Positions 24,004-24,203 of a stretch of DNA of 28,945 nt are shown here, piece after piece. The DNA comes from a virus (lineage: Duplodnaviria > Caudoviricetes). Numbering within the stretch: position 1 is the first letter of the stretch; each line of letters begins with the position of its first letter. The stretch covers positions 1 through 28,945 of the IMG/VR virus record IMGVR_UViG_3300029183_000031. The stretch is one strand, 5' to 3'. The notes beneath the pieces are model-generated. The model saw only the letters and a list, made by a program, of their open reading frames with translations, ran no database searches and was not told where the DNA came from. The translations under genes were made by a program, and so were the position numbers.

Positions 24004-24203
24004 ACGCTATTCCAGCTAGCGCAAAGCAGATTCGTCCCAATAACGCTGGGATCCAACGGCAACCATGTTTTAAGTGTGTGGTCGGCCACTTCGCTTGAAT
24101 AACGCTCAAGTCGCACGGCAACTGTTTAAAGCTACAGTCAAAGCCCCTATCTCTTTATACAGCGAGTGGATCACTGGCAACTTTTTAAAGCCCGTCAAGG
24201 CTT
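24004..24203 (-). ncRNA. Tandem pseudoknot-like array in the capsid 5' leader (putative cis-regulatory RNA)
   Basis: Three imperfect ~55-60-nt units with invariant GUUGCC junction plus a partial fourth; stems covary between units (see findings). Confidence 0.65.

What the first reader, a model, noticed from the sequence alone, without database searches (positions are those of the whole stretch)
24004..24203. Array of seven tandem covarying pseudoknot modules in the major-capsid 5' leader
Seen (minus strand): alternating modules with interleaved stems S1-S2-S1'-S2', the H-type pseudoknot order. A1 AAGCC-UU-GAC-G-GGCUU-UAAAAA-GUU; B1 CAGU-GAUCCA-CUC-GCUG-UAUAAA-GAG; A2 GGGGCU-UU-GACUGU-AGCUUU-AA-ACAGUU; B2 CGU-GCGA-CUUGA-GCG-UUAU-UCAAG; A3 AAGUG-GCC-GACCA-CA-CACUU-AAAACA-UGGUU; B3 CGU-UGGA-UCCCA-GCG-UUAU-UGGGA; A4 GCU-UU-GCGCU-AGC-UGGAAU-AGCGU. 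Each A-B junction is an invariant GUUGCC. Stem sequences differ between copies but pairing is kept, which points to selection on RNA structure. A U-rich run follows A4, and the RBS is ~30 nt downstream. Inference: a multivalent protein-binding, mRNA-stabilising or anti-termination element setting capsid output. I cannot name a family for it.
Basis: partly seen in the sequence, partly recalled or inferred. Interest (0 to 1): 0.85.

Follow-up and report, generated by a model that had tools for sequence, protein, structure and literature searches.

The report
Seven-pseudoknot barricade before phage capsid gene
The 200 bases before this phage's major capsid gene hold seven back-to-back sets of interlocking complementary stems, kept with compensating changes in related phages, that are predicted to fold into RNA pseudoknots and likely shield the capsid message from the host decay enzyme RNase E.

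Summary
Observation confirmed. Seven H-type pseudoknot units (61 pairs, 10 G-U) fill 24203-24004 (-) and end 39 nt before an N4-gp56-family capsid gene; their summed stem energy beats 1000 of 1000 shuffles. The two 5' units are marginal. The element is family-wide: 212 dereplicated capsid leaders average 3.16 strict pseudoknots against 1.25 in shuffles. Sites picked by sequence motif alone show a second stem of 5 or more pairs in 45% (7% with swapped partners); 21 of 23 double substitutions in orthologous second stems keep pairing; G-U exceeds A-C 69 to 32, fixing the sense RNA strand. Arrays stop about 37 nt before the start codon, leaving a G-poor initiation region. No Rfam family covers it; anonymous Fremin 2023 models upstream of the same capsid family could not be viewed. 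Best reading (inferred, about 45%): serial coaxial obstacles that block RNase E scanning and so raise capsid mRNA over upstream cistrons. Main rival: a T4 gene 32-like protein operator. Nested-fold energy models do not favour the array, and no expression data were available. This scan noted the same kind of leader before on other DNA (eight notes listed).

The parts
24179..24203 (-). A1 pseudoknot unit (S1 5 bp, S2 3 bp; marginal, competes with a 6-bp hairpin)
24151..24176 (-). B1 pseudoknot unit (S1 4 bp, S2 3 bp; weakest; the same slot has a 5-bp S2 in L268 and L273)
24120..24147 (-). A2 pseudoknot unit (S2 6 bp, identical S2 with compensated S1 in L268 and L273)
24094..24117 (-). B2 pseudoknot unit (family-type core: S1 closed by CG/CG, loop 3 starting UUA)
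24061..24091 (-). A3 pseudoknot unit (S1 5 bp, S2 5 bp)
24035..24058 (-). B3 pseudoknot unit, near-invariant in sequence in the six close leaders
24004..24027 (-). A4, last pseudoknot unit; its S2 hairpin plus the U run also scores as terminator-like here
24204..24228 (-). 84% A+U stretch just 5' of the array (candidate RNase E entry site or degenerate -10 region; inferred)
23965..24003 (-). 39-nt initiation region: U-rich run, A/C-rich spacer, GGAGG at 23976-23972
22143..23964 (-). Major capsid gene (PF13252 Phage_capsid_3, TIGR04387 capsid_maj_N4, phrog_334) split by a group I intron with an HNH ORF (exon 1 to about 23638, exon 2 from about 22856)
24216..24398 (-). 60-aa K/G/Y-rich ORF between scaffold and array; no homologue found
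24418..24461 (-). abiF RNA motif (RF03085, 48.6 bits, cut-off 37) followed by a U run; upstream of the array, not conserved among capsid relatives
24470..25429 (-). Putative head scaffolding gene (phrog_8865, E 1.5e-7), downstream of a P22-like portal gene

Best explanation
The array is a conserved chain of interlocking stems in the capsid leader that is predicted to fold into serial H-type RNA pseudoknots and likely acts as a barricade against RNase E scanning, which would keep the capsid cistron intact and translated longer than the portal and scaffold cistrons upstream. Steps: (1) shown by sequence and comparison: 3-7 compact pseudoknot units, 2-4 nt apart, fill the gap before N4-gp56-family capsid genes and stop about 37 nt before the start codon, leaving a G-poor, weakly folded initiation region with a Shine-Dalgarno site. 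(2) Inferred: the units fold one after another during transcription. (3) Inferred: a 5' monophosphate end arises just upstream, by RNase E cutting of the late polycistronic message (as at -71 of T4 gene 32) or by pyrophosphate removal at a promoter-made 5' end. (4) From published E. coli work, not tested on this RNA: RNase E walks from a 5' monophosphate along single strands, passes simple hairpins, but is impeded by pseudoknots in proportion to coaxial base pairs, with little regard to sequence. (5) Inferred: several pseudoknots in series would add up, so module number would tune capsid output relative to portal and scaffold.
For: Explains why pseudoknots rather than hairpins, why several, and why S2 sequence is free: PMC9943677 (abstract and passages) reports that 8-15-bp pseudoknots block scanning in a graded way while orthogonal stem-loops do not; units here have 7-12 pairs. 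Pairing is selected: 3.16 vs 1.25 strict pseudoknots per leader in 212 leaders, peak confined to -200..0; motif-anchored S2 of 5 or more pairs at 45% of 170 sites vs 7% swapped and 4.5% of 444 sites outside leaders; 21 of 23 double changes in S2 keep pairing in 50 indel-free orthologous units. RNA on the sense strand: internal G-U 69 vs A-C 32 (shuffles 4.6 vs 9.4); third S1 pair U-G 12 vs C-A 3. Arrays fill the gap: 51% vs 17% coverage, unit number rises with gap length (rho 0.45, 123 loci). Specific to the capsid leader: 1.52 vs 1.31 after the capsid stop (162 loci), 1.58 vs 1.15 before the upstream ORF (126 loci). The initiation region is left free: G falls to 6-8% at -24..-18; -34..+20 folds at -7.9 vs -14.8 kcal/mol in coding controls. 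Both kinds of 5' end occur: first unit within 40 nt of the upstream stop in 56 of 113 arrays, promoter-like sites in 43 of 208 leaders vs 13.3 in shuffles. Precedent: T4 gene 32 mRNA is cut by RNase E at -71, carries a pseudoknot at -67 and is the most stable T4 mRNA (PMC3014915 passages).
Against: No functional or expression data. Simple energy sums put the array at -17 to -44 kcal/mol (two penalty choices, no coaxial or triple terms) against -59 for a nested fold of the same span, although that nested value is ordinary for shuffles (-55.9 +/- 4.3). Conserved sequence (CG-closed S1, loop 3 starting UUA/UCA, near-invariant B3, RUUGCC joints) is more than a pure obstacle needs and may mark a protein site. 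S1 covariation is thin: 3 of 3 double changes keep pairing but 13 of 15 single changes break it. The unfiltered orthologue test was noisy: S2 doubles 65 of 91 kept (40.5 expected), singles 35 of 136, G-U 42 vs A-C 41. A+U enrichment just 5' of the first unit is slight family-wide (0.52 vs 0.45-0.48; 84 arrays). Additive protection by serial pseudoknots is my extrapolation; the passages read test single obstacles. The host, and whether it uses RNase E, is unknown. 5 of 8 cultured relatives tested show no significant array.
Confidence: 0.45

Rival explanations
1. T4 gene 32-like translational operator: a phage protein (free scaffold or unassembled capsid protein) nucleates on the pseudoknots and spreads into the U-rich initiation region, coupling capsid synthesis to assembly.
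For: Same layout as the T4 gene 32 operator: pseudoknot ending about 40 nt upstream, then an unstructured A+U region over the ribosome site (PMC3014915 passages; here 39 nt; median 37). Conserved CG-closed S1 and UUA loop 3. P22 scaffold autoregulation exists (only a reference line seen; otherwise recalled).
Against: Unit number and S2 sequence vary freely; one pseudoknot suffices in T4; no conserved ligand gene besides scaffold and capsid; K/R-rich peptides in only 13 of 208 loci; 165 of 170 single-stranded context is untested.
Confidence: 0.25
2. Translation enhancer or standby site: pseudoknots with A/U-rich loop 3 plus the U-rich tract recruit ribosomal protein S1 and 30S subunits next to the start site.
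For: Fixed distance to the start codon; loop 3 is A/U-rich (602 of 875 nt); S1 binds A/U-rich loop 3 of H-type pseudoknots (PMC7038950 passages).
Against: The same paper finds that S1 prefers less folded pseudoknots; 171 of 198 leaders already have a Shine-Dalgarno-like site; gives no reason for up to seven units.
Confidence: 0.15
3. Nascent-RNA antiterminator (put-like) or an attenuator whose last hairpin and U run stop transcription before the capsid gene.
For: First unit starts 1-15 nt after a promoter-like -10 in 10 of 18 sites in long-gap loci; in this genome the A4 hairpin plus U run scores as terminator-like.
Against: Only 13 of 173 leaders have a U run right behind the last unit; 165 of 208 leaders lack a promoter-like site; no promoter found here; position tracks the start codon.
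Confidence: 0.07
4. Decoy for a type III toxin (pseudo-ToxI-like array), released from the abundant capsid message.
For: ToxI is a tandem array of pseudoknots that phages mimic (PMC3475682 passages); this genome carries an abiF antitoxin-type motif 220 nt upstream without an Abi_2 gene.
Against: ToxI repeats are near-identical 36-nt units with sequence-specific contacts; here units differ, no tandem repeat is called, no Rfam match in the array, and the fixed tie to the capsid start in 212 leaders points to action in cis; the abiF motif is absent from relatives.
Confidence: 0.04
5. Conformational switch or riboswitch that sequesters the ribosome site.
For: Small H-type pseudoknots resemble preQ1-I or guanidine-III aptamers in size (recalled); alternative nested folds are predicted.
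Against: Strict pseudoknots overlap -18..-8 in only 21 of 198 leaders; loops are short and variable; no Rfam riboswitch hit.
Confidence: 0.04

Closest known systems
T4/T2/RB69 gene 32 mRNA leader pseudoknot (PMC3014915, passages read)
   Same: H-type pseudoknot about 40-67 nt before the start codon, followed by an unstructured A+U-rich region and the ribosome site; RNase E cut just upstream; very stable phage mRNA.
   Different: Single pseudoknot, ligand is the gene's own single-strand-binding protein; here 3-7 units before a capsid gene, no known ligand.
Pseudoknot obstacles to RNase E scanning (PMC9943677, abstract and passages read)
   Same: H-type pseudoknots of 8-15 coaxial pairs in a bacterial 5' UTR protect downstream sites in a graded, sequence-independent way.
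   Different: Shown with transplanted viral and telomerase pseudoknots, one at a time; this would be a natural, serial, dedicated version. Not tested on this RNA.
Tandem pseudoknots of the FMDV 5' non-coding region (PMC11436118, passages read)
   Same: Two to four tandem pseudoknots in a viral 5' region, variable number between strains, linked to virion production.
   Different: Animal RNA virus genome element with a proposed packaging role; here an mRNA leader of a DNA phage, so RNA packaging cannot apply.
ToxI / pseudo-ToxI type III antitoxin arrays (PMC3475682, PMC12373285, passages read)
   Same: Head-to-tail small pseudoknots; phage copies exist.
   Different: Near-identical 36-nt repeats before a toxin gene or as a free RNA; here divergent 24-31-nt units before a capsid gene.
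Anonymous candidates DNAVirus_3698 (85 nt, 180 sequences) and DNAVirus_865 (62 nt) of Fremin et al. 2023 (PMC10690425, supplement rows read)
   Same: Listed within 25 nt upstream of capsid_maj_N4 genes (37 and 4 cases), the family this capsid gene belongs to.
   Different: Their alignments and structures could not be opened, so overlap is unknown; the main-text passages seen mention pseudoknots only for gene 32 and do not describe tandem arrays.

Membership tests
H-type pseudoknot array (structural class) | Interleaved stems S1-S2-S1'-S2' with short loop 1, 0-2 nt loop 2, A-rich loop 3 | tested here: met
   7 of 7 units; family loop lengths and composition
H-type pseudoknot array (structural class) | Compensatory change in both stems | tested here: met
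   S2: 21 of 23 double changes; S1: 3 of 3 doubles and third-pair table C-G 35, U-A 24, U-G 12, C-A 3, but 13 of 15 S1 single changes break pairing
H-type pseudoknot array (structural class) | Fold formed in solution | not testable with these tools
   No probing data; nearest-neighbour sums do not favour it over a nested fold
Any Rfam 15 family | Score at gathering threshold over the array | tested here: not met
   No hit in 24004-24203 at gathering; best overlap at E<=10 is SBWMV2_UPD-PKb, 16.1 bits vs 39, E 7.2
T4 gene 32 operator | Lies before gene 32 (single-strand-binding protein) | tested here: not met
   Downstream gene is a PF13252/TIGR04387 capsid gene
T4 gene 32 operator | Pseudoknot about 40 nt upstream followed by unstructured A+U region | tested here: met
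   39 nt here, median 37 in 118 arrays (selected for at most 70 nt); spacer G 15% vs 30% background
T4 gene 32 operator | Bound and repressed by a phage protein | not testable with these tools
   Needs binding and reporter assays
RNase E scanning obstacle | Coaxial pairing of 8 or more bp between 5' end and cleavage-prone region | tested here: met
   Six of seven units have 8-12 pairs, B1 has 7
RNase E scanning obstacle | Protects downstream sites in vivo; host has RNase E | not testable with these tools
   Host unknown; most closely related loci in named genomes lie in Proteobacteria assemblies, whose labels may be misbinned
Type III antitoxin (ToxI-like) | Near-identical tandem repeats of 34-50 nt | tested here: not met
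   No tandem repeat over the array; only partial 59-nt spaced repeats at 76-94% over 15-25 nt
Type III antitoxin (ToxI-like) | Toxin gene downstream or neutralisation of toxin | tested here: inconclusive
   Downstream gene is capsid; decoy activity in trans not testable
Intrinsic terminator / attenuator | U run directly behind the last hairpin, conserved | tested here: not met
   Present here but in only 13 of 173 leaders

The most novel reading that the evidence does not exclude
A natural, modular RNase E barricade: phages of the N4-gp56 capsid family stack 3-7 pseudoknots in front of the capsid ribosome site and tune capsid-to-scaffold-to-portal output by duplicating or deleting modules, possibly read out by a phage assembly protein that binds the conserved A-B joints. 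It would be the first mRNA leader built of serial pseudoknots as a stoichiometry dial in bacteria or phages, and a ready-made library of stabiliser parts.
Probability: 0.35. Interest if true: 0.8.

Novelty: new variant of a known kind. Interest (0 to 1): 0.62.

Why it matters
Capsid protein must be made in hundreds of copies per virion from late operons that also encode minor proteins; how is poorly known outside a few model phages. A conserved, covarying serial-pseudoknot leader across capsid genes from about 30% to 80% identity gives a concrete, testable answer and a natural test of the RNase E scanning model, which so far rests mostly on engineered single obstacles. Two cultured phages carry significant arrays (Rhizobium phage RHph_Y1_10 and Mae-JY35; 0 of 200 shuffles each), so the element can be studied during infection. 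The units are also compact candidate mRNA stabilisers for bacterial expression.

Tried and rejected
blastn of the leader against 50,697 phage records gave only 14 chance hits of at most 27 nt. Whole-leader MFE is not unusual (z -1.44), as expected for pseudoknots. Chain length at loose thresholds does not separate the leader from shuffles and was dropped for summed energy and motif-anchored tests. A first promoter scan that required T at the first -10 position found a site 3-25 nt before the first unit in only 4 of 113 arrays; the relaxed scan found 43 of 208; neither, nor, found one in this window. MAFFT of six close leaders misregistered the A4 stems by 1 nt, so pair counting on it was not run. 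Pattern scans for close relatives gave few true hits: 4 of 9 (3 distinct leaders), 5 of 8 with the close-clade leader, 2 of 23. No RNA holder was listed for the region. The 60-aa protein search returned only itself. No covariance model was built because such models drop one of the two stems. Literature searches for a described tandem-pseudoknot capsid leader found none; the Weinberg 2017 supplement and the Fremin 2023 alignment files could not be read and may bear on novelty.

Full report
Context. The window is a 28,945-nt phage record. On the minus strand lie terminase, a P22-like portal, a putative scaffold gene (25429-24470), an abiF RNA motif with a U run (24461-24418), a 60-aa K/G/Y-rich ORF (24398-24216), a 250-nt gap and the major capsid gene, start 23964, PF13252 / TIGR04387 capsid_maj_N4, split by a group I intron with an HNH ORF.

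Observation. An earlier scan allowing one G-U per stem linked only four units, matched by 5 of 300 shuffles. The top 3 of 1150 windows of the contig are this leader. A1 and B1 are marginal (3-bp S2, equal or better simple hairpins). The A-B pairs repeat at 59 nt and two close relatives have the same A-B-A-B-A-B-A layout with RUUGCC joints, so the array grew by duplication of a two-pseudoknot module (inference).

Homologues. Four scans gave 265 loci; 261 had a locatable capsid start, 254 at least 150 nt upstream (own locus excluded), 215 remained after dereplication and 212 had 200 nt upstream. These average 3.16 strict pseudoknots per leader against 1.25 in shuffles (2.65 vs 1.13 in the 55 with under 60% capsid identity); 153 of 212 have three or more; density peaks only at -200..0. 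The antisense strand also scores (2.61), as Watson-Crick stems must, but units with a CG-closed S1 are 2.07 sense vs 0.95 antisense vs 0.38 shuffled. Because the scanner selects for pairing, two tests avoided that. First, 170 sites in 107 of 212 leaders were picked only by the motif RCG-U(U/C)A: a second stem of 5 or more pairs stood at 45% of them, 7% with partners swapped between leaders and 4.5% at 444 sites outside leaders; the third S1 pair read C-G 35, U-A 24, U-G 12, C-A 3. Second, units predicted in one leader were read in a sequence-aligned orthologue from 48 disjoint pairs. Unfiltered, S2 double changes kept pairing in 65 of 91 (40.5 expected), single changes in 35 of 136, with no G-U excess (42 vs 41 A-C). 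Restricted to the 50 CG-core units aligned without indels, S2 doubles kept pairing in 21 of 23 and S1 doubles in 3 of 3, though 13 of 15 S1 single changes broke it. Internal G-U outnumbers A-C 69 to 32 (shuffles 4.6 vs 9.4), which points to RNA on the sense strand.

Anatomy. In 118 of 208 leaders with two or more linked units ending within 70 nt of the start, the last unit ends a median 37 nt upstream (10-90%: 30-53); G drops to 6-8% at -24..-18; the -34..+20 region folds weakly; 171 of 198 have a Shine-Dalgarno-like site and only 21 of 198 a pseudoknot over it. Units cover 51% of the gap vs 17% in shuffles and their number rises with gap length (123 loci). The regions after the capsid stop and before the upstream ORF show little excess. 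The first unit lies within 40 nt of the upstream stop in 56 of 113 arrays; promoter-like sites occur in 43 of 208 leaders vs 13.3 shuffled and 17 antisense, often 1-15 nt before the first unit (10 of 18 listed sites); none was found in this window. Ten of the loci, all at 36-47% capsid identity, have gaps under 60 nt and no room for an array. Of 8 cultured relatives, RHph_Y1_10 and Mae-JY35 have four units (0 of 200 shuffles), phiA008 two (2 of 200), five are not significant.

Mechanism. Best reading (0.45): a serial obstacle to RNase E scanning. PMC9943677 (abstract and passages) reports that RNase E scans from a 5' monophosphate, passes orthogonal hairpins, and is impeded by H-type pseudoknots in proportion to coaxial pairs, composition mattering little. 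That accounts for pseudoknots instead of hairpins, free S2 sequence, variable number, tight linkers, and placement directly ahead of a U-rich initiation region. T4 gene 32 gives the phage precedent (RNase E cut at -71, pseudoknot at -67, most stable T4 mRNA; PMC3014915 passages). Here 25 nt of 84% A+U precede A1, but family-wide that enrichment is slight. Folding, the 5' end, protection and additivity are all inferred. Against: nearest-neighbour sums give -17 to -44 kcal/mol for the array vs -59 for a nested fold (itself ordinary, -55.9 +/- 4.3 in shuffles); conserved sequence exceeds what an obstacle needs; the host is unknown. Rivals: gene 32-like operator bound by scaffold or capsid protein (0.25), S1/30S enhancer (0.15; PMC7038950 passages), antiterminator or attenuator (0.07; U run behind the last unit in only 13 of 173 leaders), type III toxin decoy (0.04; PMC3475682 and PMC12373285 passages), switch over the ribosome site (0.04). 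These functions are not exclusive.

Known or new. No Rfam 15 family covers the array. Six literature searches found no description of a tandem-pseudoknot capsid leader; the library lacks most subscription papers. Fremin et al. 2023 (PMC10690425; passages and supplement rows) list DNAVirus_3698 and DNAVirus_865 upstream of capsid_maj_N4 genes; their models could not be opened, so part of this element may be catalogued without description. Weinberg 2017 (PMC5737381): main-text passages seen, supplement unreadable. FMDV tandem pseudoknots are an architectural analogue only (PMC11436118 passages). PMC9144972 and PMC2115188 (one reference line) added nothing further. It works like a 5' leader pseudoknot stabiliser or operator, but is not a member of any described family. 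This scan has noted the same kind of leader in other genomes (eight notes shown); I did not test whether they are the same family.

Verdict. Real, conserved, uncatalogued in Rfam, function inferred. New variant of a known kind; interest 0.62.

Noticed in passing
window 24461-24418 (-): abiF antitoxin-type RNA motif (RF03085, above cut-off) with a U run, in a genome record without an Abi_2 gene (record 68% complete). The same hairpin occurs in about 420 IMG/VR stretches; 81 of 97 distinct copies have a U-rich tail and only 2 of 35 first downstream ORFs scanned (35 of the 60 printed) are Abi_2: candidate orphan phage decoys of AbiF toxins, or a terminator family.
   Followed up: partly
L001, L186, L268, L273, L188 (just upstream of the arrays); window 24398-24216 (-): Short lysine-rich ORFs (14-29 aa, four ending KKKC) between scaffold and array in the close clade; their last codons and stop spell an extended -10-like TGnTAnnnT, with a -35-like hexamer 17 nt upstream in L001. 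The window has a longer, unrelated 60-aa K/G/Y-rich ORF there.
   Followed up: partly
window about 23637-22857 (-): Group I intron inside the major capsid gene with an HNH/endonuclease VII ORF (23540-22950) and a promoter-like site at 23574-23547.
   Followed up: no
window 10537-10327 (-) and 10635-11219 (+): Second group I intron (68.8 bits) in the tail region, with an HNH ORF on the opposite strand.
   Followed up: no
window 6074-6144 (+): tRNA gene (58.8 bits) at the convergence of the early and late blocks.
   Followed up: no
window 21619-18964 (-): TPR protein, methyltransferase and GT8 glycosyltransferase genes inserted between capsid and adaptor genes, suggesting virion surface modification.
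   Followed up: no
L268, L273 unit 4; L268 unit 1: Orthologous S2 stems keep a central A-A or G-G mismatch; L268 unit 1 has a loop 3 of about 30 nt, so unit geometry tolerates insertions.
   Followed up: no
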